DNA of 64,000 nucleotides from positions 54,746,001-54,810,000 of the forward strand of contig OZ024748.1 in the NCBI GenBank assembly GCA_964016885.1. The letters are read 5' to 3'. Made by a program: the position numbers and the translations under genes. This DNA is from Eledone cirrhosa. Lineage: Eukaryota. Shown here piece after piece: positions 11,941-64,000 of the stretch (the first letter of the stretch is position 1; every line of letters begins with the position of its first letter). A model generated the notes under the pieces. That model ran no database searches, was not told where the DNA came from, and saw only the letters and a list, made by a program, of their open reading frames with translations.

Positions 11941-12602
11941 TATATCAAAGATATATATTGAGTTAGGAACTCAAAATAGTCTCTTACAACAAAATTTGAA
12001 CACATATATGTAGATATCTGTGCAAAATTTGAACACATATGTATATATATCTATGTTCGTTTTTCTTTTATATTCTATTGTAATATACGGCTCGGAAATA
12101 TCTCTTTCTTAGAGCTATTTTGTTGTAAGAGACTATTTTGAGTTCCTAACTCAATATATACCTTTGATATATTCGGCTCCGTTAATTTGTTGAGCTATTT
12201 TAAATGTCAAATAAACCTGGCTGCGATTTTTAGTGGTGTAAGTTTGTGAGACACGCTAAGATACCATGTGCGCTATATTATATATAGCACACTATTCAGT
12301 TTCTTTATATACTTAGAAGTGTCTAGGATACTAATTCATCATTCACTGATGAGCTTGAATTGGTAATTCTATTCATAATTAACATTGCGAAACAACACCA
12401 AGTTGTCTGGGTGATTAGTAGTTACCACAATTGCGGTTTGTATTTATTTTCTTTATTTTCTTAAATTGTGACAAGCAAACCTAATTGTCTATAGTTAGTA
12501 TTCTTTCCACCTTAGCGAATCTGGTCCCTTACGATTTGGACACACATATGTATATATCTGTGTTCGTTTTTCTTTTTCTTTTTCTTTTATATTTTATTGT
12601 AG

Positions 12603-12604: not shown

Positions 12605-12683
<79 letters not shown>

Positions 12684-12691
<8 letters not shown>

Positions 12692-12909
12692 TAGCAGATT
12701 AAAGTTTAAGCAAAGAATCGCTGCTTTCACCCTCAACGGGATCTTCTGAACAGTTTCAGAAGATCCCGTTAAGGGTGAAAGCAGCGATTCTTTACTTAAA
12801 CTTTAATCTGTTATTTTAATAAATATTTGCTCTACGGTTCTTATATATTTGATATATATTTATCCTTATCGAGCCCTCTTTGGATTTTAGTGTTCAAATT
12901 TATTATTAT

Positions 12910-12912
<3 letters not shown>
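12684..12912 (+). mobile_element. Fold-back cassette with variant hammerhead (CAGAAGA core); further copies at 17366-17545 and 30406-30556
   Basis: 67-bp arms (12684-12750 / 12755-12821, 3 mismatches, 4-nt loop) plus a 90-bp tail, flanked by (TA)n. Confidence 0.75.
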
Positions 12913-12961
<49 letters not shown>

Positions 12962-13060: not shown

Positions 13061-13530
13061 ATATTAGATAATGATTTAAGAATGAAAACAATAACAAAGT
13101 CAAGTTATTTTACCTATTCATATAATTGTTTTACGATCGTTTCGGAGGGTTGATCATATTGACATATTCACTGATCTATAGCAGTTATATAACTGTATAC
13201 TATCAGACATCATATATAGGTTCGATGAAACCGTGTTCTTTCCTATATATGATGTCTGATAGTATACAGTTATATAACTGCTATAGATCAGTCAATATGT
13301 CAATATGATCAACCCTCTGAAACGATCGTAAAACAATGATATGAATAGGTAAAATAACTTTGTTATTGTTTTCATTGTTAAATTAATATCTAATATCAGA
13401 CACTGTATCTAAGGGATTAACTCGGCGAAACACGGAACCGTTCTATGGATTTCACTGGATTACTCGCTATCGGATTATATTGAGTTCTATCTACGGTACG
13501 GACCCTATCACGAAGGGTAGACAACATTGA
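13061..13530 (+). mobile_element. Long fold-back cassette (arms about 160 bp) with unique tail ending in poly(A)/(TA)n
   Basis: Arms 13061-13220 and 13242-13396, 21-nt loop; each arm carries GAAACGATCGTA, a hammerhead 3' half with palindromic stem III. Confidence 0.7.
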
Positions 13531-15093: not shown

Positions 15094-15571
15094 TGTGTGT
15101 GTGTGTATATGTGTATTCGTGAGATTTGTGAATAGAATCGTATGTTTGTCTTCTTTGTTTATGCGAATTTAGATATAGCTTTACGTATATGCATGTATAA
15201 GTTTATATACGTTTATACAAGATGTGTGCCTGTCTGTGTGTGTAAGTCTTTGCGTACTCGTGTATACACACATGTAATGTTGTTATTTAAATTATATACA
15301 ACATCAATGATGTTCTAAAGGATTTAGTTATTACAATTTGCCAGCAAGACGAAAATTAAATGGCCGAACAGTAAAAAGAGTAAATAAAGAACAGCACAAA
15401 GCCTCATTCACAGCCGTCTAATGTAGTTTCACAGCAGGAAGAGGATAACAGTGATCTGACGATAATTAGTCTATTTAAATAGACTGTTTATACACATATA
15501 TATTGCTGTCCTTGTGCCCAAAGCAGAAAAAAAGATTATTATTAACATTATATATATATATAATAATGTTA

Positions 15572-15700
15572 ATAATAATATGTTTTTCTGCTTTGGGCAC
15601 AAGGACAGAAATTTGAATGGAAGTGGGTGTCGTTTAAATCGACCTAAGTGCATTACTGGTACTTTATTTTATCGACCCCGTAAGGATGAAAGGCAAAGCT
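15572..15700 (-). mobile_element. SINE family A, long variant, 5'-truncated
   Basis: gcacaaggacagaaattt..gtcgtttaaatcgac..ctggtactttattttatcgaccccgtaaggatgaaaggcaaag. Confidence 0.8.
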
Positions 15701-16814: not shown

Positions 16815-17195
16815 AATAATTGTTTCTACTTTTGGCACAAGGCCAGCAATTATCCCAGTGTATTACTGGTGTTTGATTTTATCGATCCCGTAAGGATGAA
16901 AGGCAAAGTTAACCTCGGCGGGATTTGAACTCAGATCATAAAGGGCCGTAACTCTATGCTGCAAAGTATGGCGTCCGACTCTCTACCGATACTGCCAATC
17001 TGGTTCTTATTTAGGCACAAGGCCAAACATTTGGGGTGATGGGAAAGTCGATTAAATCGACTCCAGTGCGTTACTGGTACTTTATTTTATTGACCCTGTT
17101 GGGATGAAAGGCAAATCTAATCTCGGCGGGATTTGAACTCAGAACGTAAATGGACGTAACTCTATGCTGCAAAGCCTGTTGTCCGATAGTCTACA
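16815..17195 (-). mobile_element. Tandem dimer of SINE family A (short plus long variant) inside one TSD
   Basis: Copies at about 16815-17000 and 17003-17195; gctaattaataa at 16808-16819 and 17201-17212. Confidence 0.85.
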
Positions 17196-17383
17196 CCCTG
17201 GCTAATTAATAACAACTTACAAATAAGGTTACAACGAGAAGAATCTCCCAATGACCATTTGAAAATAAAACAACCTAGAAATATTAAACAATTCCACGTG
17301 ATATCCACTAAAGCCAAAACAGACGGTAATGAAGTTAACTAGTTTTGAAATATTTACTTCTGCGTTAACAGATTGACTTTTTT

Positions 17384-17434
17384 AGTTTCAGAAGATCCCG
17401 TTAAGGGTGAAAGCAGCGATTCTTTGCTTAAACT
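17384..17434 (+). ncRNA. Variant type I hammerhead motif (CAGAAGA core, CUU site)
   Basis: AGTTT-CAGAAGA-tCCCgttaaGGGt-GAA-AGCA-gcgattctt-TGCT-T-AAACT; stem I extends past an internal loop via taacagatt/aatctgtta. Confidence 0.55.
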
Positions 17435-17541
17435 TTAATCTGTTATTTTAATAAATATGTGCTCTACGGTTCTTATATATTTGATATATATTTATCCTTA
17501 TCGAGCCCTCTTTGGATTTTAGTCTTCAAATGTATTATTAT

Positions 17542-17593
<52 letters not shown>

Positions 17594-17647
17594 TCCCTTA
17601 CGAATTGAACACATATATGTCTGTGTTCGTTTTTCTTTTTTGTTCAG

Positions 17648-17741: not shown

Positions 17742-17929
17742 TGTGTATCCCGGGTTCAATCGGGAGTAACTACAGTAAGGTACTCAATACATAGCAGAGT
17801 ATAACATTTTAATATAGAAATGGCTTCTACAGGACTAAAAGCGTTTCACTCGAAGGAAATCATCAGGAAAGCCCTGATCATTTCCTTCGAATGAAACAGT
17901 TATAGTCGTGTAGAAGCCATTTCTATATT
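17742..17929 (-). mobile_element. Fold-back hammerhead cassette; related copies at about 34558-34730 (+) and 46755-46885 (+)
   Basis: Arms of about 57 bp (17811-17867 / 17873-17929) plus tail cccgggttcaatcgg, whose complement ends the 34.7-kb copy. Confidence 0.75.
17822..17873 (-). ncRNA. Type I hammerhead motif (GUA)
   Basis: Reverse complement GGCTT(T)C-CTGATGA-tttccttcgagt-GAAACG-cttttagtcc-TGTA-GAAGCC; the 34.6-kb and 46.8-kb copies have stem III ACAG/CTGT. Confidence 0.65.
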
Positions 17930-18004
<75 letters not shown>

Positions 18005-22266: not shown

Positions 22267-22370
22267 AGTATGTATGTATGTATGTATGTATGTATGTATG
22301 TATGTATGTATGTATGTATGTATGTATGTATATGTGAGAGCGTATCTAATGCATTTATCAGAGACACCCT

Positions 22371-22522
<152 letters not shown>

Positions 22523-22811
22523 AATATATATATATGTAAGGGTGTCTGATGAATGTATATATATACATATATATATATGATGACAGAAAACGAAAAACAA
22601 ATATATGGGAACAAATAATGAAACATTACACACATACACACGTGTGTATACTTACACACACATCTGTGTGTAAGTACACACACTAACATTGCAATCGCGT
22701 ATACAGAGAAAAGCAACATTCATTATATACATACATATATATATACATATATACATACATACATATATGCATACATACACGTATATATATACATACATAC
22801 ATGTATATATA

Positions 22812-30405: not shown

Positions 30406-30409
<4 letters not shown>

Positions 30410-30556
30410 AGAATAATAAATTTGAAGACTAAAATCCAAAGAGGGCTCGATAAGGATAAATATATATCTAATATATAAGAGCAAATATTTAGAAGATCCC
30501 GTTAAGGGTGAAAGCAGCGATTCTTTGCTTAAACTTTAATCTGTTATTTTAATAAA
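30406..30556. mobile_element. Rearranged copy of the 12684-12912 cassette
   Basis: Tail is inverted (tttgaagactaaaatccaaagagggctcgataagg) and joined to agaagatcccgttaagggtgaaagcagcg.. Confidence 0.85.
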
Positions 30557-30707
30557 TAAATATATGTATATATATATATATATATATATTCTGCGTCCAG
30601 AATTAGCCGTCGGGGTCCTACTCGTTCCTATTACCCACTCTACTACCCTAAGTATTGAGTACTCTGGTGCGCTATGGTCCATCTGGTTCCTTACCACATT
30701 TTCTTCG

Positions 30708-39948: not shown

Positions 39949-40260
39949 GTGTCATCGCAGTTTGCCCAAGATTACTGTCAACAGTTACTTTAGAGAAGTG
40001 TTTTAACCCAGCGGTGTTGAAAGTTAAATACATCTATATTCCACAAATATTTCATTTATCACGAAAACTGAGTTGAAATCTCAATTTTAAAAAAAGAAAC
40101 AGAGACCAGAACTAACAGTGATTTCTGGTTCCGGTTGACCAAATAAAATATTTACACTTTGTCCTCAATCGTTGTCATTTGTGTATCTATGAGCGTGTAT
40201 GCGTGCATGTGTGAGAGTGAGTGAGTGAGTGAGTGAGTGTGTATATATATATATATATAT

Positions 40261-40764
40261 ATAATTGTTTCTACTTTGGGCACAAGGCCAGCAATTACCC
40301 AGTGCATTACTGGTACTTTATTTTATCGACCCCGTAAGGATGAAAGGCAAAGTTAACCTCGGCGGGATTTGAACTCAGAATGGCAAGGGATGTAACTCTA
40401 TGCGTCAAAGCATGGCGTCCGACCCTCTAGCGATACTGCCAATCCACCGCCAATCTATCATTATATATATCAGGGCGGTGGATTGGCAGTATCGGTAGAG
40501 GGTCTGACGCCATGCTTTGACGCATAGAGTTACGGCCCTTGCCTTTCTGAGTTCAAATCCCGCCGAGGTTAACTTTGCCTTTCATCCTTACGGGGTCGGT
40601 AAAATAAAGTACCTGTAATGCACTGGGTAATTGCTGGGCTTGTGCCAAAAGTAGAAACAATTATACATATATATATAATTGTTTCTACTTTAGGCACAAG
40701 GCCAGCAAATACCCAGTGCATTACTGGTACTTTATTTTATCGACCCCGTAAGGATGAAAGGCAA
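40261..40764. mobile_element. Cluster of three SINE family A copies in -/+/- orientation
   Basis: 40261-40451 (-), 40473-40664 (+), 40675-40764 (-, truncated); all close to consensus. Confidence 0.92.
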
Positions 40765-48585: not shown

Positions 48586-49375
48586 CCCACCACCGCTACC
48601 AAAACCACTACCACCAACATTGCCGCCACCCCCGTGGCCCATCCACCGCCACCACCGCTACCAAAACCACTACCACCAACATTGCCGACACCCCCGTGGC
48701 CCATCCACCGCCACCACCGCTACCAAAACCCCTACCACCACCATTGCCGACACCCCCGTGGCCCATCCACCGCCACCACCGCTACCAAAACCACTACCAC
48801 CACCGCTACCAAAACCACTGCCACCACCATTGCCGACACCCCCGTGGCCCATCCACCGCCACCACCGCTACCAAAACCACTACTACCACCATTGCCGCCA
48901 CCCCCGTGGCCCATCCACCGCCACCACCGCTACCAAAACCCCTACCACCACCATTGCCGACACCCCCGTGGCCCATCCACCGCCACCACCGCTACGAAAA
49001 CCCCTACCACCACCATTGCCGCCACCCCCGTGGCCCATCCACCGCCACCACCGCTACCAAAACCACTACTACCACCATTGCCGACACCCCCGTGGCCCAT
49101 CCACAGCCACCACTGCTACCACGAAAGCCACTACCACCACCATCGTGCCCCCCCACTGCTACCAGCAAAACCACTACCACCACCATTGCCGCCACCACCG
49201 TGGCCCATCCACCACCACCACTGCTACCAGCAAAACCACTATCACCACCATTGCCGCCACCACCACAGGCCATCCACCACCATCACCACCACCACTGCTA
49301 GCAGCAAAACCACTACCACCACCATTGCCGCCACCACCGTGGCCCATGCACCACCACCACCGCCACCACTACCAA
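48586..49375. repeat. 62-bp C-rich minisatellite (about 8 conserved plus 4 degenerate units)
   Basis: gtggcccatcc at 48634, 48696, 48758, 48844 (extra 24-bp sub-duplication), 48906, 48968, 49030 and 49092. Confidence 0.95.
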
Positions 49376-49723
49376 ATCCACTACCACCACCACCGTCACT
49401 ACCACTACAATCACAACTATGACCACCACCATAACTATTTCAACCATCGCCACCCTATCACACCGCTACTACCCTCATCACAGTCATCTACCCTCCCTAA
49501 CACCACAACCACCACTTCCAACCACCACCACCACCAGTACCACTACAACCAGTACCACCACTACCACTACAACCATTACCACCACCACTATCACCACTAC
49601 AAACACTACCACCACACCACTACCACCACCACTACAACCAGTACCACCACTACCAGCATTAAAACCAGTACCACTACAACCACTACCACCACCACTACAA
49701 CACCTTCCATTATTACCATTATT

Positions 49724-50101: not shown

Positions 50102-50190
50102 ACCATTACAACCACTACCACACTAACATCATTACAACTACTACCACCACTGCCGCAATTACCGCCACAACCACCACTACCATCACTAAC

Positions 50191-53100
50191 ACCACTACGA
50201 CCAACATCATCTAACACCACTACGACCAACATCATCTAACACCACTACGACCAACAACATATAACATCACTACGACCAACATCATCTAACACCACTACGA
50301 CGAACATCATCTAACACCAATACGACCAACAGCATCGAACATCACTACGACCAACAACATATAACATCACTACGACCAACATCATCTAACATCACTACGA
50401 CCAACAACATCTAACATCACTACGACCAACAGCATCTAACATCACAACGACCAACAACATGTAACATCACGACAACCAACAACATCTAACATCACTACGA
50501 CCAACAACATCTAACATCACTACGACCAACATCATCTAACACCACTACGACCAACAACATCTAACACCACTACGACCAACATCATCTAACACCACTACGA
50601 CCAACAACATCTAACACCACTACGACCAACAACATCTAAAACCACTACGACCAACAACATTTAACACCACTACGACCAACAATATCTAACACCACTACGA
50701 CCAACAACATCTAACACCACTACGACCAACAACATCTAACACCACTTCGACCAACAACATCTAACATCACTACGACCAACAGCATCTAACATCACTACAA
50801 CCAACATCATCTAACACCACTTCGACCAACAGCATCTAACACCACTACGACCAACATCATCTAACACCACTACGACCAACAACATCTAACACCACTACGA
50901 CCAACAACATCTAACATCACTACGACCAACATCATCTAACAACACTACGACCACCAACATCTAACATCACTACGACCAACATCATCTAACACCACTACGA
51001 CCAACAGCATCTAACATCACTACGACCAACAGCATCTAACATCACTACGACCAACATCATCTAACACCACTACGACCAACAGCATCTAACACCACTACGA
51101 CCAACATCATCTAACACCACTACGACCAACAACATCTAACACCACTACGACCAACAGCATCTAACACCACTACGACCAACAACATCTAACATCACTACGA
51201 CCAACAGCATATAACATCACTACGACCAACAGCATCTAACACCACTACGACCAACAACATCTAACATCACTACGACCAACAGCATCTAACACCACTACGA
51301 CCAACAGCATCTAACATCACTACGACCAACAACATCTAACATGACTACGACCAACAGCATCTAACATCACTACGACCAACAGCATCTAACACCACTACGA
51401 CCAACAACATCTAACATCACTACGACCAACAGCATCTAACACCACTACGACCAACAACATCTAACATCACTACGACCAACATCATCTAACACCACTACGA
51501 CCAAAAACATCAAACATCACGACAACCAACAACATCTAACACCACTACGACCAACAACATCTAACATCACTACGACCAACAGCATCTAACACCACTACGA
51601 CCAACAACATCTAACATCACTACGACCAACAGCATCTAACACCACTACGACCAACAACATCTAACATCACTACGACCAACAGCATATAACACCACTACGA
51701 CCAACATCATCTAACACCACTACGACCAAAAACATCAAACATCACGACAACCAACAACATCTAACACCACTACGACCAACAGCATCTAACATCACTAGGA
51801 CCAACAGCATGTAACATCACTACGACCAACAACATCTAACATCACTACGACCAACATCATCTAACACCACTACGACCAACAACATCTAACACCACTTCGA
51901 CCAACAACATCTAACATCACTACGACCAACAACATCTAACATCACTACGACCAACATCATCTAACATCACTAGGACCAACAGCATGTAACATCACTACGA
52001 CCAACAACATCTAACATCACTACGACCAACAGCATCTAACACCACTACGACCAACAACATCTAACACCACTTCGACCAACAACATCTAACATCACTACGA
52101 CCAACAACATCTAACATCACTACGACCAACATCATCTAACACCACTACGACCAACAACATCTAACACCACTACGACCAACATCATCTAACACCACTACGA
52201 CCAACAACATCTAACACCACTACGACCAACAACATCTAACACCACTACAACCAACAACATCGAAAACCACTACGACCAACAACATTTAACACCACTACGA
52301 CCAACAACATCTAACACCACTACGACCAACAACATCTAACACCACTACAACCAACAACATCTAACACCACTACGACCAACAACATCTAACATCACTACGA
52401 CCAACAGCATCCAACATCACTACGACCAACATCATCTAACACCACTACGACCAACAGCACCTAACACCACTACGACCAACATCATCTAACACCACTACGA
52501 CCAACAACATCTAACACCACTACGACCAACAGCATCTAACATCACTACGACCAACAGCATATAACATCACTACGACCAACAGCATCTAACACCACTACGA
52601 CCAACAACATCTAACATCACCACGACCAACAGCATCTAACACCACTACGACCAACAGCATCTAACATCACTACGACCAACAACATCTAACATGACTACGA
52701 CCAACAGCATCTAACAGCACTACGACCAACAGCATCTAACACCACTACGACCAACAACATCTAACATCACGACGACCAACAGCATCTAACACCACTACGA
52801 CCAACAACATCTAACATCACTACGACCAACAGCATCTAACACCACTACGACCAACATCATCTAACACCACTACGACCAACAACATCTAACACCACTACGA
52901 CCAAAAACATCAAACATCACGACAACCAACAACATCTAACACCACTACGACCAACAACATCTAACATCACTACGACCAACAGCATCTAACACCACTACGA
53001 CCAACAACATCTAACACCACTACGACCAAAAACATCAAACATCACGACAACCAACAACATCTAACACCACTACGACCAACAACATCTAACATCACTACGA

Positions 53101-56100
53101 CCAACAGCATCTAACACCACTACGACCAACAACATCTAACACCACTACGACCAACAATATCTAACATCACTACGACCAAAAACATCAAACATCACGACGA
53201 CCAACAGCATCTAACACCAGTACGATCAACAGCATCTAACACCACTACGACCAACAACATCTAACATGACTACGACCAACAGCATCTAACACCACTACGA
53301 CCAACAACATCTAACACCACTACGACCAAAAACATCAAACATCACGACAACCAACAGCATCTAACACCACTACGACCAACAGCATCTAACACCACTACGA
53401 CCAACAACATCTAACATCACTACGACCAACAGCATCTAACACCACTACGACCAACAACATCTAACACCACTACGACCAACAACATCTAACACCACTACGA
53501 CCAACAACATCTAACATCACTACGACCAACAGCATCTAACACCACTACGACCAACAACATCTAACACCACTACGACCAACAACATCTAACACCACTACGA
53601 CCAACAACATCTAACATCACTACGACCAACATCATCTAACACCTCTACGACCAACAACATTTAACACCACTACGACCAACAACATCTAACACCACTACGA
53701 CCAACATCATCTAACACCTCTACGACCAACAACATTTAACACCACTACGACCAACAACATCTAACATCACTACGACCAACAACATTTAACACCACTACGA
53801 CCAACAACATCTAACACCACTACGACCAACAGCATCTAACACCACTTCGACCAACAACATCTAACACCACTTCGACCAACAACATCTAACATCACTACGA
53901 CCAACAGCATCTAACACCACTTCGACCAACAGCATCTAACATCACTACGACCAACAGCATCTAACATCACTACGACCAACATCATCTAACACCACTACGA
54001 CCAACATCATCTAACACCACTTCGACCAACAGCATCTAACACCACTTCGACCAACAGCATCTAACACCACTACGACCAACATCATCTAACACCACTACGA
54101 CCAACAACATCTAACATCACTACGACTAACATATTCTAACATCACTACGACCAACAACATCTAACATCACTACAACCAACATCATCTAACACCACTACGA
54201 CCAACAGCATCTAACATCACTACGACCAACAGCATCTAACATCACTACGACCAACAACATCTAACACCACTACGACCAACAGCATCTAACACCACTACGA
54301 CCAACATCATCTAACACCACTACGACCAACAACATCTAACACCACTACGACCAACAGCATCTAACACCACTACGACCAACAACATCTAACATCACTACGA
54401 CCAACAGCATATAACATCACTACGACCAACAGCATCTAACACCACTACGACCAACAACATCTAACATCACTACGACCAACAGCATCTAACACCACTACGA
54501 CCAACAGCATCTAACATCACTACGACCAACAACATCTAACATGACTACGACCAACAGCATCTAACATCACTACGACCAACAGCATCTAACACCACTACGA
54601 CCAACAACATCTAACATCACTACGACCAACAGCATCTAACACCACTACGACCAACATCATCTAACACCACTACGACCAAAAACATCAAACATCACGACAA
54701 CCAACAACATCTAACACCACTACGACCAACAACATCTAACATCACTACGACCAACAGCATCTAACACCACTACGACCAACAGCATCTAACACCACTACGA
54801 CCAACAACATCTAACATAACTACGACCAACATCATCTAACACCACTACGACCAACAGCATCTAACACCACTACGACCAACAACATCTAACATCACTACGA
54901 CCAACAGCATCTAATACCACTACGACCAACAACATCAAACACCACTACGTCCAACAAAATCTAACACCACTACGACCAACAACATCTAACATCACTACGA
55001 CCAACATCATCTAACACCACTACCACCAAAAGCATCTAACATCACTACGACCAACAGCATCTAACATCACTACGATCAACATCATCTAACACCACTACGA
55101 CCAACAGCATCTAACACCACTACGACCAACATCATCTAACACCACTACGACCAACAACATCTAACCACACTACGACCAACAGCATCTCATATCACTACGA
55201 CCAACAGCATCTAACACCACTACGACCAACAACATCTAACATCACTACGACCAACACCATCTAACATCACTACGAACAACAGCATCTAACACCACTACGA
55301 CCAACAACATCTAACATCACTACGACCAACGGCATCTAACATCACTACGACCAACAGCATCTAACATCACTACGACCAACAGCATCTCATATCACTACGA
55401 CCAACAACATCTAACACCACTACGACCAACAACATCTAACATCACTACGACCAACACCATCTAACATCACTACGAACAACAGCATCTAACACCACTACGA
55501 CCAACAACATCTAACATCACTACGACCAACGGCATCTAACATCACTACGACCAACAGCATCTAACATCACTACGACCAACAGCATCTCATATCACTACGA
55601 CCAACAGCATCTAACACCACTACGACCAACAACATCTAACATCACTAAGACCAACACCATCTAACATCACTACGAACAACAGCATCTAACACCACTACGA
55701 CCAACAACATCTAACATCACTACGACCAACGGCATCTAACATCACTACGACCAACAGCATCTAACATCACTACGACCAACAGCATCTCATATCACTACGA
55801 CCAACAACATCTAACACCACTACGACCAACAACATCTATCACCACTACGAACAACAGCATCTAACATCACTACGACCAACAGCATCTAACACCACTAAAA
55901 CCAACAACATCTAACATCACAACAGCCAACAACATCTAACATCACTACGACCAACAGCATCTAACACCACTACGACCAACAACATCTAACATCACTACGA
56001 CCAACAGCATCTAACAACACTACGACCAACAGCATCTAACATCACTACGACCAACAGCATCTAACATCACTACGACCAACGGCATCTAACACCACTACGA

Positions 56101-59100
56101 CCAACAATATCTAACATCACCACAACCAACAGCATCTAACATCACTACGACCAACAGCATCTAACATCACTACGACCAACGGCATATAACACCACTACGA
56201 CCAACAATATCTAACATCACCACAACCAACAACATCTAACACCACTACGACCAACAACATCTAACATCACTACGACCAACAACATCTAACATCACTACGA
56301 CCAACAACATCTAACACCACTACGACCAACATCATCTAACATCACTACGACCAACAGCATCTAACACCACTACGACCAACAACATCTAACACCAGTACGA
56401 CCAACAGCATCTAACATCACTACGACCAACAGCATCTAACACCACTACGACCAACATCATCTAACAACACTACGACCAACAACATCTAACAGCACTACGA
56501 CCAACAGCATCTAACACCACTACGACCAACAACATCTAACATCACTACGACCAACAGCATCTAACATCACTACGACCAACAGCATCTAACATCACTACGA
56601 CCAACAGCATCTAACATCACTACGACCAACAGCATCTAACAACACTACGACCAACACCATCTAACATCACTACGAACAACAGCATCTAACACCACTACGA
56701 CCAACAACATCTAACACCACTACGACCAACATCATCTAACATCACTACGACCAACAGCATCTAACACCACTACGACCAACAACATCTAACACCAGTACGA
56801 CCAACAGCATCTAACATCACTACGACCAATAGCATCTAACACCACTACGACCAACAACATCTAACATCACGACAACCAACAACATCTAACACCACTACGA
56901 CCAACAGCATCTAATACCACTACGACCAACAACATCTAACATCACTACGACCAACAGCATCTAACACCACTACGACCAACATCATCTAACATCACTACGA
57001 CCAACAGCATCTAACATCACTACGACCAACAGCATCTAACACCACTACGACCAACAATATCTAACATCACTACGACCAACAGCATCTAACATCACTACGA
57101 CCAACAGCATCTAACACCACTACGACCAACAACATCTAACATCACTACTACCAACAGCATCTAACACCACTACGGCCAACAACATCTAACACCACTACGA
57201 CCAACAGCATCTAACACCACTACGACCAACATCATCTAACACCACTACGACCAACAACATCAAACATCACGACAACCAACAACATCTAACACCACTACGA
57301 CCAACAACATCTAACATCACTACGACCAACAGCATCTAACACCACTACGACCAACAACATCTAACACCACTACGACCAACAATATCTAACATCACTACGA
57401 CCAACATCATCTAACACCACTACGACCAACAGCATCTAACACCACTACGACCAACAACATCTAACATAACTACGACCAACATCATCTAACACCACTACGA
57501 CCAACAGCATCTAACACCACTACGACCAACAACATCTAACATCACTACGACCAACAGCATCTAACACCACTACGACCAACATCATCTAACATCACTACGA
57601 CCAACAGCATCTAACACCACTACGACCAACAGCATCTAACACCACTACGACTAACAACATCTAACATAACTACGACCAACATCATCTAACACCACTACGA
57701 CCAACAGCATCTAACACCACTACGACCAACAACATCTAACATCACTACGACCAACAGCATCTAACACCACTACGACCAACAACATCAAACACCACTACGT
57801 CCAACAAAATCTAACACCACTACGACCAACAACATCTAACATCACTACGACCAACATCATCTAACACCACTACGACCAAAAGCATCTAACATCACTACGA
57901 CCAACAGCATCTAACATCACTACGATCAACATCATCTAACACCACTACGACCAACAGCATCGAACACCACTACGACCAACATCATCTAACACCACTACGA
58001 CCAACAACATCTAACCACACTACGACCAACAGCATCTCATATCACTACGACCAACAGCATCTAACACCACTACGACCAACAACATCTAACATCACTACGA
58101 CCAACACCATCTAACATCACTACGAACAACAGCATCTAACACCACTACGACCAACAACATCTAACATCACTACGACCAACGGCATCTAACATCACTACGA
58201 CCAACAGCATCTAACACCACTAAAACCAACAACATCTAACATCACGACAGCCAACAACATCTAACATCACTACGACCAACAGCATCTAACACCACTACGA
58301 CCAACAACATCTAACATCACTACGACCAACAGCATCTAACACCACTACGACCAACAGCATCTAACATCACTACGACCAACAGCATCTAACATCACTACGA
58401 CCAACAGCATCTAACACCACTACGACCAACAATATCTAACATCACTACGACCAACAGCATCTAACATCACTACGACCAACAGCATCTAACACCACTACGA
58501 CCAACAACATCTAACATCACTACTACCAACAGCATCTAACACCACTACGGCCAACAACATCTAACACCACTACGACCAACAGCATCTAACACCACTACGA
58601 CCAACATCATCTAACACCACTACGACCAACAACATCAAACATCACGACAACCAACAACATCTAACACCACTACGACCAACAACATCTAACATCACTACGA
58701 CCAACAGCATCTAACACCACTACGACCAACAACATCTAACACCACTACGACCAACAATATCTAACATCACTACGACCAACATCATCTAACACCACTACGA
58801 CCAACAGCATCTAACACCACTACGACCAACAACATCTAACATAACTACGACCAACATCATCTAACACCACTACGACCAACAGCATCTAACACCACTACGA
58901 CCAACAACATCTAACATCACTACGACCAACAGCATCTAACACCACTACGACCAACATCATCTAACATTACTACGACTAACAGCATCTAACATCACTACGA
59001 CCAACAGCATCTAACACCACTATGACCAACAATATCTAACATCACTACGAACAACAGCATCTAACATCACTACGACCAACATCATCTAACATCACTACTA

Positions 59101-62100
59101 CCAACAACATCTAACATCACTACGACCAACAATATCTAACATCACTACGACCAACATCATCTAACACCACTACGACCAACAGCATCTAACACCACTACGA
59201 CCAACAACATCTAACATCACTACGACCAACAGCATCTAACACCACTACGACCAACAACATCAAACACCACTACGTCCAACAATATCTAACACCACTACGA
59301 CCAACAACATCTAACATCACTACGACCAACAACATCTAACATCACTACGACCAACAACATCTAACATCACTACGACCAACAGCATCTAACATCACTACGA
59401 CCAACGGCATCTAACACTACTACGACCAACAATATCTAACATCACCACAACCAACAACATCTAACACCACTACGACCAACAACATCTAACATCACTACGA
59501 CCAACAACATCTAACATCACTACGACCAACAACATCTAACACCACTACGACCAACATCATCTAACATCACTACGACCAACAGCATCTAACACCACTACGA
59601 CCAACAACATCTAACACCAGTACGACCAACAGCATCTAACATCACTACGACCAACAGCATCTAACACCACTACGACCAACATCATCTAACAACACTACGA
59701 ACAACAGCATCTAACACCACTACGACCAACAACATCTAACACCACTACGACCAACATCATCTAACATCACTACGACCAACAGCATCTAACACCACTACGA
59801 CCAACAACATCTAACACCAGTACGACCAACAGCATCTAACATCACTACGACCAACAGCATCTAACACCACTACGACCAACAACATCTAACATCACGACAA
59901 CCAACAACATCTAACACCACTACGACCAACAGCATCTAATACCACTACGACCAACAACATCTAACATCACTACGACCAACAGCATCTAACACCACTACGA
60001 CCAACAGCATCTAACATCACTACGACCAACAGCATCTAACATCACTATGACCAACAGCATCTAACACCACTACGACCAACAATATCTAACATCACTACGA
60101 CCAACAGCATCTAACACCACTACGACCAACAGCATCTAACACCACTACGACCAACAACATCTAACATCACTACTACCAACAGCATCTAACACCACTACGG
60201 CCAACAACATCTAACACCACTACGACCAACAGCATCTAACACCACTACGACCAACATCATCTAACACCACTACGACCAACAACATCAAACATCACGACAA
60301 CCAACAACATCTAACACCACTACGACCAACAACATCTAACATCACTACGACCAACAGCATCTAACACCACTACGACCAACAACATCTAACACCACTACGA
60401 CCAACAATATCTAACATCACTGCGACCAACATCATCTAACACCACTACGACCAACAACATCTAACATAACTACGACCAACATCATCTAACACCACTACGA
60501 CCAACAGCATCTAACACCACTACGACCAACAACATCTAACATCACTACGACCAACAGCATCTAACACCACTACGACCAACATCATCTAACATTACTACGA
60601 CCAACAGCATCTAACATCACTACGACCAACAGCATCTAACACCACTATGACCAACAATATCTAACATCACTACGAACAACAGCATCTAACATCACTACGA
60701 CCAACATCATCTAACATCACTACTACCAACAACATCTAACATCACTACGACCAACAATATCTAACATCACTACGACCAACATCATCTAACACCACTACGA
60801 CCAACAGCATCTAACACCACTACGACCAACAACATCTAACATCACTACGACCAACAGCATCTAACACAACTACGACCAACAACATCAAACACCACTACGT
60901 CCAACAACATCTAACATCACTACGACCAACAACATCTAACATCACTACGACCAACAACATCTAACATCACTACGACCAACAACATCTAACATCACTACGA
61001 CCAACAACATCTAACACCAGTACGACCAACAACATCTAACATCACTACGACCAACAACATCTAACACCAGTACGACCAACAGCATCTAACATCACTACGA
61101 CCAACAGCATCTAACACCATTACGACCAACAACATCTAACATCACGACAACCAACAACATCTAACACCACTACGACCAAAAGCATCTAACACCACTACGA
61201 CCAACAACATCTAACATCACTACGACCAACAGCATCTAACACCACTACGACCAACAGCATCTAACATCACTACGACCAACAGCATCTAACATCACTACGA
61301 CCAACAGCATCTAACACCACTACGACCAACAATATCTAACATCACTACGAACAACAGCATCTAACATCACTACGACCAACATCATCTAACATCACTACTA
61401 CCAACAACATCTAACATCACTACGACCAACATCATCTAACACCACTACGACCAACAGCATCTAACATCACTACGACGAACAGCATCTAACATCACTACGA
61501 CCAACATCATCTAACACCACTACGACCAACAGCATCTAACATCACTACGACCAACAGCATCTAACACCACTACGACCAACAACATCTAATATCACTACGA
61601 CCAACACCATCTAACATCACTACGAACAACAGCATCTAACACCACTACGACCAACAACATCTAACACCACTACGACCAACATCATCTAACATCACTACGA
61701 CCAACAGCATCTAACACCACTACGACCAACATCATCTAACATCACTACGACCAACAGCATCTAACATCACTACGACCAACAGCATCTAACACCACTACGA
61801 CCAACAATATCTAACATCACTACGACCAACAGCATCTAACATCACTACGACCAACAGAATCTAACACCACTACGACCAACAACATCTAACATCACTACGA
61901 CCAACATCATCTAACATCACTACGACCAACAACATCTAACATCACTACGCCCAACAGCATCTAACATCACTACGACCAACATCATCTAACATCACTACTA
62001 CGAACAACATCTAACATCACTACGACCAACAACATCTAACATCACTACGACCAACATCATCTAACACCACTACGACCAACAGCATCTAACATCACTACGA

Positions 62101-64000
62101 CCAACAGAATCTAACATCACTACGACCAACATCATCTAACACCACTACAACCAACAGCATCTAACACCACTACGACCAACAACATCTAACATCACTACGA
62201 CCAACACCATCTAACATCACTACGAACAACAGCATCTAACATCACTACGACCAACAGCATCTAACATCACTACGACCAACAGCATCTAACACCACTACGA
62301 CCAACAACATCTAACACCACTACAACCAACAGCATCTAACACCACTTCGACCAACAACATCTACCACCACTACGACCAACATCATCTAACATCACTACGA
62401 CCAACAGCATCTAACACCACTACGACCAACAACATCTAACATCACTACGACCAACATCATCTAACACCACTACGACCAACAACATCTAACATCACTACGA
62501 CCAACAGCATCTAACATCACTACGACCAACAGCATCTAACATCACTACGACCAACAGCATCTAAGACCACTACGACCAACAACATCTAACATCACGACAA
62601 CCAACAACATCTAACACCACTACGACCAACAACATCTAACACCACTACGACCAACAGCATCTAACACCAGTACGACCAACAACATCTAACATCACTACGA
62701 CCAACAGCATCTAACATCACTACGACCAACAGCATCTAACACCACTACAACCAACAGCATCTAACACCAGTACGACCAACAACATCTAACATCCCTACGA
62801 CCATCAGCATCTAACATCACTACGACCAACAGCATCTAACATCACTACGACCAACAGCATCTAACACCACTACGACCAACAATATCTAACATCACTACGA
62901 ACAACAGCATCTAACATCACTACGACCAACATCATCTAACACCACTACGACCAACAGCATCTAACATCACTACGACCAACAGCATCTAACACCACTACGA
63001 CCAACAATATCTAACATCACTACGAACAACAGCATCTAACATCACTACGACCAACATCATCTAACATCACTACTACCAACAACATCTAACATCACTACGA
63101 CCAACAACATCAAACATCACGACAACCAACAACATCTAACACCACTACGACCAACAGCATCTAACATCACTACGACGAACAGCATCTAACATCACTACGA
63201 CCAACATCATCTAACACCACTACGACCAACAGCATCTAACATCACTACGACCAACACCATCTAACATTACTACGAACAACAGCATCTAACACCACTACGA
63301 CCAACAACATCTAACACCACTACGACCAACATCATCTAACATCACTACGACCAACAGCATCTAACACCACTACGACCAACAGCATCTAAGACCACTACGA
63401 CCAACATCATCTAACATCACTACGACCAACAGCATCTAACATCACTACGACCAACAGCATCTAACACCACTACGACCAACAATATCTAACATCACTACGA
63501 CCAACAGCATCTAACATCACTACGACCAACAGCATCTAACACCACTACGACCAACAACATCTAACATCACTACGACCAACATCATCTAACATCACTACGA
63601 CCAACAACATCTAACATCACTACGACCAACATCATCTAACACCACTACGACCAACAACATCTAACATAACTACGACCAACATCATCTAACACCACTACGA
63701 CCAACAGCATCTAACACCACTACAACCAACAGCATCTAACACCACTACGACCAACAACATCTAACATCACTACGACCAACACCATCTAACATCACTACGA
63801 ACAACAGCATCTAACATCACTACGACCAACAGCATCTAACATCACTACGACCAACAGCATCTAACACCACTACGACCAACAACATCTAACACCACTACGA
63901 CCAACAGCATCTAACACCACTTCGACCAACAACATCTACCACCACTACGACCAACAACATCTAACATCACTACGACCAACAGCATCTAACACCACTACGA
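50191..64000. repeat. 25-bp satellite array, about 552 units, running off the window end
   Basis: Consensus A(C/T)CACTACGACCAACA(A/G/T)CATCTAAC; same phase at 50191 and 63991 (13,800 = 552 x 25). Confidence 0.98.

What the first reader, a model, noticed from the sequence alone, without database searches (positions are those of the whole stretch)
12684..12912. Young cassette family with a non-canonical CAGAAGA/CUU hammerhead, in three different rearrangements
Near-identical copies appear as a fold-back (12684), linear (17366) and tail-inverted (30406) form. The same variant core is seen in both arms at 12.7 kb and at 17389: A in place of U4, U.U at the base of stem II and a CUU site. Stems I-III all pair. 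Persistence in recent copies suggests a tolerated natural variant rather than decay. The differing rearrangements suggest that inversion happens at integration.
Basis: partly seen in the sequence, partly recalled or inferred. Interest (0 to 1): 0.7.

Follow-up and report, generated by a model that had tools for sequence, protein, structure and literature searches.

The report
Penelope retroelement with altered hammerhead core
These cassettes are end fragments of a young, very abundant Penelope-like jumping gene whose self-cutting RNA motif carries an unusual A in its core in 99% of copies and likely cuts slowly, and whose inverted copies likely arise from two reverse-transcription starts during insertion.

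Summary
The three cassettes are real. They are 3' pseudo-LTR/tail fragments of a young Hydra-clade Penelope-like retrotransposon (713-aa RT + GIY-YIG ORF; at least 21,280 exact core matches in a 3.0-Gb genome). A4 is the family norm (15,077 of 15,209 copies with an intact stem-I flank), so it was inherited from the masters, not produced by decay. U.U and CUU are ordinary in this clade or genome; only A4 is unusual. All stems pair in 1 of 4 window arms only. A sister family in another organism has mostly C at position 4, with its other changes in loops, N7 or wobble pairs. Cleavage is not shown: no compensatory pairs in 228 copies and no 5'-end peak at the cut site. Inversions and tails are known for these elements. 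Two things I did not find in print: 39 of 41 cleanly classed two-armed insertions have one long and one short end, and 5' ends pile up at the first base of stem I, often behind an extra G, as from a capped RNA. Best reading: an attenuated hammerhead at the RNA's 5' end, with paired priming at integration.

The parts
12679..12750 (-). Left arm of the fold-back insertion: element positions -2 to about +70 (C3 = 0), short 3' end, against a TA run; stem I truncated to 2 pairs
12752..12913 (+). Right arm of the fold-back: starts exactly at element position -5 (the inferred RNA start; preceded here by C, not G), runs to the long 3' end (+155); C.A mismatch in stem III
17343..17547 (+). Single-armed 5'-truncated copy, element positions -46 to +155 (long end), followed by a TA run
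17368..17443 (+). Complete type I hammerhead: distal stem I 9 bp, 7-nt internal loop, proximal stem I 5 bp, stem II 3 bp above U.U, stem III 5 bp
17389..17395 (+). Variant core CAGAAGA (A4 at 17390); predicted scissile bond after U17 at 17429
   Evidence: position by hammerhead numbering, cleavage untested
17384..17384 (+). Element position -5: inferred capped 5' end of a family transcript (first base of proximal stem I)
   Evidence: inferred from other copies:
17458..17545 (+). Tail between the short (about +70) and long (+155) 3' ends, about 85 nt
30406..30491 (-). Left arm of the tail-inverted insertion: tail only (about +63 to +155, long end), against a TA run
30488..30564 (+). Right arm: core (C3 lost at the junction) to the short 3' end, then TA run

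Best explanation
The cassettes are 5'-truncated 3' ends (pseudo-LTR, hammerhead, tail) of a young Hydra-clade Penelope-like retrotransposon whose hammerhead carries A at core position 4 in 99% of copies and is likely slowed rather than fully active, and whose inverted forms likely arise because both cut target strands prime reverse transcription, one at each of two fixed internal start sites. Shown: the element (3.26-kb unit, 713-aa RT + GIY-YIG ORF), A4 as the inherited family state, TA-run targets, two fixed 3' ends, the one-long/one-short rule, and the pile-up of 5' ends at -5 with an extra G. Inferred: (1) the GIY-YIG domain cuts both strands of a (TA)n target; (2) one end primes at +155, the other at about +70, as with the two start sites of the anole element PAc; the arms often copy the same stretch, so strand displacement or a second RNA is needed; (3) the two cDNA 3' ends are joined head to head, often at the small palindrome centred on position 4 or after running off a capped RNA end at -5; (4) cleavage after U17 would remove the cap of an RNA starting at -5, or cut the two start sites off a 3' copy, which would favour a slow ribozyme that keeps its fold.
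For: Element: flanks run into the ORF and 3' UTR; Hydra motifs present; relatives at 32-55%. A4: 15,077 of 15,209, the other 132 spread over G, T and C; 24 of 26 sampled T4 hits are fold-back junctions. Position 4 relaxed while the rest is held: run X20 (organism P) has C in 21,512 and T in 3,671 of 26,852 depth at that base; its other listed changes hit 6 of 20 loop/N7 positions and 2 of 55 paired or core positions, both keeping a wobble pair (p = 0.004). Within this genome subfamily changes avoid paired columns (0 of 35 against 12 of 93, p = 0.04). Slowness: core mutants of a hammerhead showed low activity except the C3-G8 swap (PMC9901934 passage); natural U4C lowers activity in vitro yet supports a viroid (PMC3088659). 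Ends: 39 of 41 mixed, p = 8e-10. Extra G: 52 of 100 listed at -6 against 18 at -7; about 68 of 100 G against 32 C; seen on both arms in L201 and L217. PAc primes from two internal sites, extends both strands and does not need ribozyme cleavage in vitro (PMC11167929).
Against: No cleavage data and no RNA data. No compensatory base-pair change among 228 copies (92 broken, 54 one-sided cells of 5,016). The families compared are close, so an unchanged 8-nt core is weak evidence of selection; contig depth is thin at position 4 (27k against 345k further 3'). The hammerhead fold is not the predicted minimum. None of 16 ORF-length copies with an upstream hammerhead stops at -5, so long copies come from templates or template switches reaching further upstream, and the -5 RNA may not be the main mRNA. 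Long arms do not stop at the short start more often than short arms stop early (13 against 16 of 39 within 100 nt), so there is no sign of collision on a single RNA. Most loci were chosen by an exact core match, which biases arm lengths and column counts.
Confidence: 0.55

Rival explanations
1. The ribozyme is dead. A4 was fixed by hitch-hiking in a successful master, and the fold or sequence is kept for another job (promoter, protein binding, template architecture) or has simply not yet decayed.
For: Low activity of CUGA mutants; A4, U.U and a U17 site stack up in one motif; no cleavage footprint (1,532 truncations around +39 to +44 against 1,887 in a control window); PAc inserts without cleavage; Naiad elements amplify without hammerheads; no covariation.
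Against: The sister family changes N7, loops and position 4 but none of the other eight core bases, and both stem changes keep pairing; a natural U4C variant is viable; a CCGA core recurs once among 60 motifs beside related ORFs (L254).
Confidence: 0.22
2. A4 is a fully competent natural variant, rescued by the extended stem I and loop contacts or by the element's own protein, and cleavage processes tandem transcripts.
For: All helices pair in complete copies; PAc's hammerhead cleaves only with its protein; tertiary contacts are proposed to offset core variants; conservation pattern.
Against: Deep mutational data; nearly all genomic copies run uncut through the site; 0 A4 cores among 60 motifs in 78 related loci and among 35 non-family motifs in 541 kb of this genome.
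Confidence: 0.18
3. The inversions arose after integration by recombination or repair among TA runs and neighbouring copies.
For: Copies are dense and sit in unstable TA runs; 3 complex and 9 non-standard cases were set aside.
Against: The one-long/one-short rule (39 of 41), TA runs at both outer ends (36 of 39) and junctions with an extra G fit integration, not random later rearrangement.
Confidence: 0.05

Closest known systems
Hydra clade of Penelope-like elements, e.g. Hydra-1_Obim of Octopus bimaculoides (Craig et al. 2021, PMC8557442)
   Same: Single ORF of about 700 aa with RW(K/R), DKT, CxCx5C linker, C-terminal GIY-YIG without CCHH; (TA)n targets; hammerhead near the 3' end; U.U in 14 of 26 and U17 in 10 of 26 Hydra rows of File S2.
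   Different: A different family (its hammerhead words are absent from the supplement); unit 3.26 kb rather than under 3 kb; core CAGA where all 26 listed rows have CUGA (that list was found with a canonical descriptor); G15.2-C16.2 instead of C-G; at least 21,000 copies of the core.
PAc, Poseidon element of Anolis carolinensis (Frangieh et al. 2024, PMC11167929)
   Same: Two internal reverse-transcription start sites bounding a tail; AT-rich targets; uncut RNA as template.
   Different: Other clade; tail about 85 nt here and upstream of the ORF; the parts I read do not report pairing of the two starts in inverted insertions or a capped start at stem I.
Natural hammerhead core variants (Perreault et al. 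2011, PMC3088659; Cervera and De la Pena 2014, PMC4209133)
   Same: U4C in a viroid, U10.1.U11.1, C3U/G8A, all natural; hammerheads in pseudo-LTRs.
   Different: U4A does not occur in the main text of PMC3088659 nor in my searches; here it is fixed in a family of over 15,000 copies; stem III is a 5-bp non-palindromic hairpin, unlike the dimer-type minimal motifs.
L1 twin priming (recalled, not read here)
   Same: Second target strand primes internally and gives a 5' inversion.
   Different: Here both starts are fixed sites and the two arms often overlap on the template (26 of 39 long arms reach past +54).

Membership tests
Hydra-clade PLE | Single ORF, RT followed by C-terminal GIY-YIG endonuclease | tested here: met
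   P0001, 702 aa stop to stop; 713-aa frames; read by motif and by eye against the Hydra alignment; Pfam gave no relevant hit
Hydra-clade PLE | RWK motif; DKG changed to DKT | tested here: met
   RLRWRAF and HSDKTG in P0001; K is R here
Hydra-clade PLE | Linker CxCx5C; CxxC and CxH around the conserved E and N; no CCHH | tested here: met
   CNCRNRVDC, CDLC, CKH in P0001
Hydra-clade PLE | Insertion into (TA)n | tested here: met
   TA run at both outer ends in 36 of 39 two-armed insertions, at least one in 39 of 39
Hydra-clade PLE | Length under 3 kb ('generally') | tested here: not met
   unit period 3,259 bp in L103, due to a long 3' UTR; a tendency, not a strict criterion
Hydra-clade PLE | Placement in the Hydra clade on an RT tree | not tested
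   no tree with named reference families was built
Penelope-like elements | Partial tandems forming pseudo-LTRs, inverted 5'-truncated arm, tail at one end | tested here: met
   L091, L103, L110, L174 and others
Type I hammerhead ribozyme | Three helices around the core, open at stem I | tested here: met
   17389 copy pairs fully; not the predicted minimum-energy fold; Rfam models did not detect it
Type I hammerhead ribozyme | Consensus core CUGANGA ... GAAA ... UH | tested here: not met
   A at position 4; all other core bases canonical
Type I hammerhead ribozyme | Covariation of helices | tested here: inconclusive
   0 compensatory cells in 228 young copies; loop-biased and wobble-keeping changes in the sister family
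Type I hammerhead ribozyme | Self-cleavage after position 17 | not testable with these tools
   no truncation peak at the site, which is also expected if uncut RNA is the template

The most novel reading that the evidence does not exclude
Penelope integration is a fixed two-primer reaction in which a protein dimer loads one target end at each of two start sites, giving exactly one tailed and one tail-less arm; this lineage starts a capped transcript at the first base of its own hammerhead and has tuned position 4 (A here, C in a sister family) to a slow or protein-gated ribozyme so that it does not decapitate its own RNA.
Probability: 0.3. Interest if true: 0.75.

Novelty: new variant of a known kind. 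Interest (0 to 1): 0.5.

Why it matters
The role of hammerheads in Penelope-like elements and the origin of their inverted, tailed insertions are named as open questions in PMC8557442. A family that made over 15,000 recent copies with a mutated core is a natural test of whether cleavage matters, with a one-base control. The one-long/one-short rule and the extra-G ends turn the known pictures (tail at one end, inverted arm) into counted predictions for the PAc in vitro system. Canonical descriptors and Rfam miss this motif, so such variants are probably undercounted.

Tried and rejected
Rfam: no hammerhead match among the 150 of 279 rows shown for the window, none among 5 for 17340-17545. A canonical U4 subfamily: the 798 non-A matches are mostly fold-back junctions centred on that base (24 of 26 T hits sampled); with the stem-I flank required only 132 remain. 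A C4 subfamily like organism P's in this genome: 88 matches with its loop variant, 83 A, 5 T, 0 C. A4 creating a splice acceptor (CAG after a pyrimidine run): no shared upstream exon among 33 truncated junctions or 30 more. Cleavage footprint at +41: none (the control includes some CpG double mutants). The array on C14 near 41.96 Mb is a host duplication holding a fragment, not an element tandem. The loop-II T>A column is an artefact of my choosing L111-L140 and was dropped. No RNA holder listed. Low-depth, near-identical pieces in organisms B, C, D, F and I keep A4 where covered, but contamination cannot be told from transfer, so they are not used. Earlier findings of this scan: nothing returned. 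PMC11014351 held nothing on position 4. The 2017 paper on small hammerhead variants of Penelope-like elements (recalled) is not held and could bear on novelty; so could figure panels and supplements of PMC3088659 and PMC4209133, which I did not see.

Full report
Observation. The 17366 copy matches 12752-12913 (+, 97.5%), 12679-12750 (-, 95.8%), 30488-30558 (+, 98.6%) and 30406-30480 (-, 96%). The core CAGAAGA with U.U under a 3-bp stem II, GAAA and a CUU site is present at 12757, 12748(-) and 17389. Only the 17389 copy forms all helices; the two fold-back arms and the 30490 copy are truncated or mismatched. Positions below are counted from C3 = 0.

What it belongs to. The window lies in a 3.0-Gb genome of 1,796 contigs; the host is likely a cephalopod, inferred from the nearest described family and not determined. 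Flanks of the 30 best matches run upstream into a 3' UTR and endonuclease ORF and downstream into a 5' UTR and ORF start. L091 and L103 show the whole unit (period 3,259 bp in L103). The protein has the features given for the Hydra clade of Penelope-like elements in section 11 of PMC8557442: RWR, DKT, CxCx5C, CxxC and CxH. Its 120 listed relatives are 32-55% identical. Of 71 ORF matches listed in the genome, 45 have an open frame of 713 aa or more, so the family is young.

Position 4. An exact 27-mer with A4 occurs 21,280 times, with other letters 798 times. Most T4 hits are fold-back junctions centred on that base (24 of 26 sampled). With the stem-I flank required, 15,077 of 15,209 have A. 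Raw DNA reads of the same organism list no variant in the core among the 40 best-supported differences shown; 101 more were not shown. A4 is therefore the inherited state. A descriptor that allows any base at position 4 found none with A among 35 non-family motifs in 541 kb of this genome (1 hit in the shuffled control) and no CAGA core among 60 motifs in 58 of 78 related metagenome loci, where 57 were CUGA, one CCGA, one UUGA and one a probable chance hit. U.U is common (30 of those 60; 14 of 26 Hydra rows in File S2; also PMC3088659 section 8), and CUU sites occur in 6 of 33 canonical motifs of other families here. So only A4 is unusual.

Is it under selection? In run X20 (organism P) a high-copy sister family has C at position 4 in 21,512 of 26,852 depth (67 contigs), T in 3,671 (likely CpG decay of C4-G5, inferred) and A in the rest. 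Its other listed changes fall in 6 of 20 loop or N7 positions and 2 of 55 paired or core positions, both keeping a wobble pair (p = 0.004). In this genome subfamily changes avoid paired columns outside the selected pattern (0 of 35 against 12 of 93, p = 0.04). Against this: no compensatory pair in 228 copies, short divergence, thin coverage at position 4 in X20. Published data point to low activity for CUGA mutants (PMC9901934 passage), while a natural U4C viroid variant is slow but viable (PMC3088659 passage). No truncation peak marks the cut site (1,532 against 1,887), which is what uncut templates would give, as for PAc (PMC11167929).

Rearrangements. Copies have two fixed 3' ends, about +70 and +155. 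In 86 loci plus the window (L103-L197 without the duplicate L166; most chosen by a core match), 41 two-armed insertions had two standard ends: 39 one long and one short, 2 short/short (one of these, in L165, looks long/short with an insertion), 0 long/long; 9 with a non-standard end and 3 complex cases were left out; single-armed copies were 37 short, 24 long, 10 other (p = 8e-10). TA runs flank both outer ends in 36 of 39. Both two-armed insertions in the window obey the rule. [quoted passage not shown] I found no count of this pairing in the searches or in the parts read.

The 5' end. 23 of 78 arms end between -8 and +3 (about three times a rough background taken). Among copies cut at -5, the next letter upstream is G in 52 of 100 listed, against 18 at the following position; one search adds about 68 G to 32 C of 100 listed among 1,148. 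Full copies have T there. An extra G at a fixed 5' end is the usual sign of a copied cap, and the surrounding letters resemble an initiator (both recalled, no call). This suggests a capped RNA that starts at the first base of proximal stem I. None of 16 ORF-length copies with an upstream hammerhead stops there, so long copies use longer templates or template switches.

Mechanism and verdict. Most likely the element's protein cuts both strands of a TA run, primes one end at each start site, and the cDNA ends are joined head to head; the hammerhead keeps its fold but is slowed by A4, which would spare the cap and the start sites. Identity and A4 inheritance are shown; priming, cap and slowness are inferred; cleavage is untested. 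It is a new variant of a known kind; interest 0.5.

Papers seen. PMC8557442: passages, section 11, supplement searches and part 2 of 59. PMC4209133: parts 1-2 of 4. PMC11167929: parts 1-2 of 4 and passages. PMC3088659: passages and section 8. PMC9901934: passages and the list of supplements. PMC11014351: one passage. Searches for a natural U4A hammerhead or this family in print; none found, but the library lacks most subscription papers and figures are not held.

Noticed in passing
window 17808-17932: Fold-back of another hammerhead family with a canonical core (CUGAUGA at 17866, minus strand); its junction also lies just 5' of the core, as in the A4 family.
   Followed up: no
window 13968(-), 19778(+), 38358(-), 13725(-): Further canonical hammerhead-like cassettes, several with short palindromic stem III and next to TA runs; probably ends of other Penelope-like families.
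   Followed up: partly
window 50186-64000: Tandem array of a 25-bp unit, about 550 copies, 89-92% matches, strongly C/A-skewed, running off the window; a C/A-rich 62-bp repeat lies at 48587-49392.
   Followed up: no
window 13061-13396, 40248-40677, 22342-22566, 40575-40764, 15502-15612: Long near-perfect palindromes (90-94%), possibly MITEs or fold-back insertions of other families.
   Followed up: no
window 12523-12580 and 17592-17645: A short shared segment lies near both the 12.7-kb and 17.4-kb insertions, across TA runs; possibly the end of another repeat family.
   Followed up: no
L254:2928: A hammerhead with a CCGA core (U4C) upstream of a Hydra-like ORF in a metagenome contig, different from the canonical one downstream.
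   Followed up: no
L093:5775-5890 laid on runs X4, X5, X7, X9: Near-identical (about 99%) low-depth pieces in other coded organisms; contamination or horizontal transfer cannot be told apart.
   Followed up: partly
window 17000-17190; also inside L091 3' UTR: A recurrent SINE-like repeat lies beside or inside several copies.
   Followed up: no
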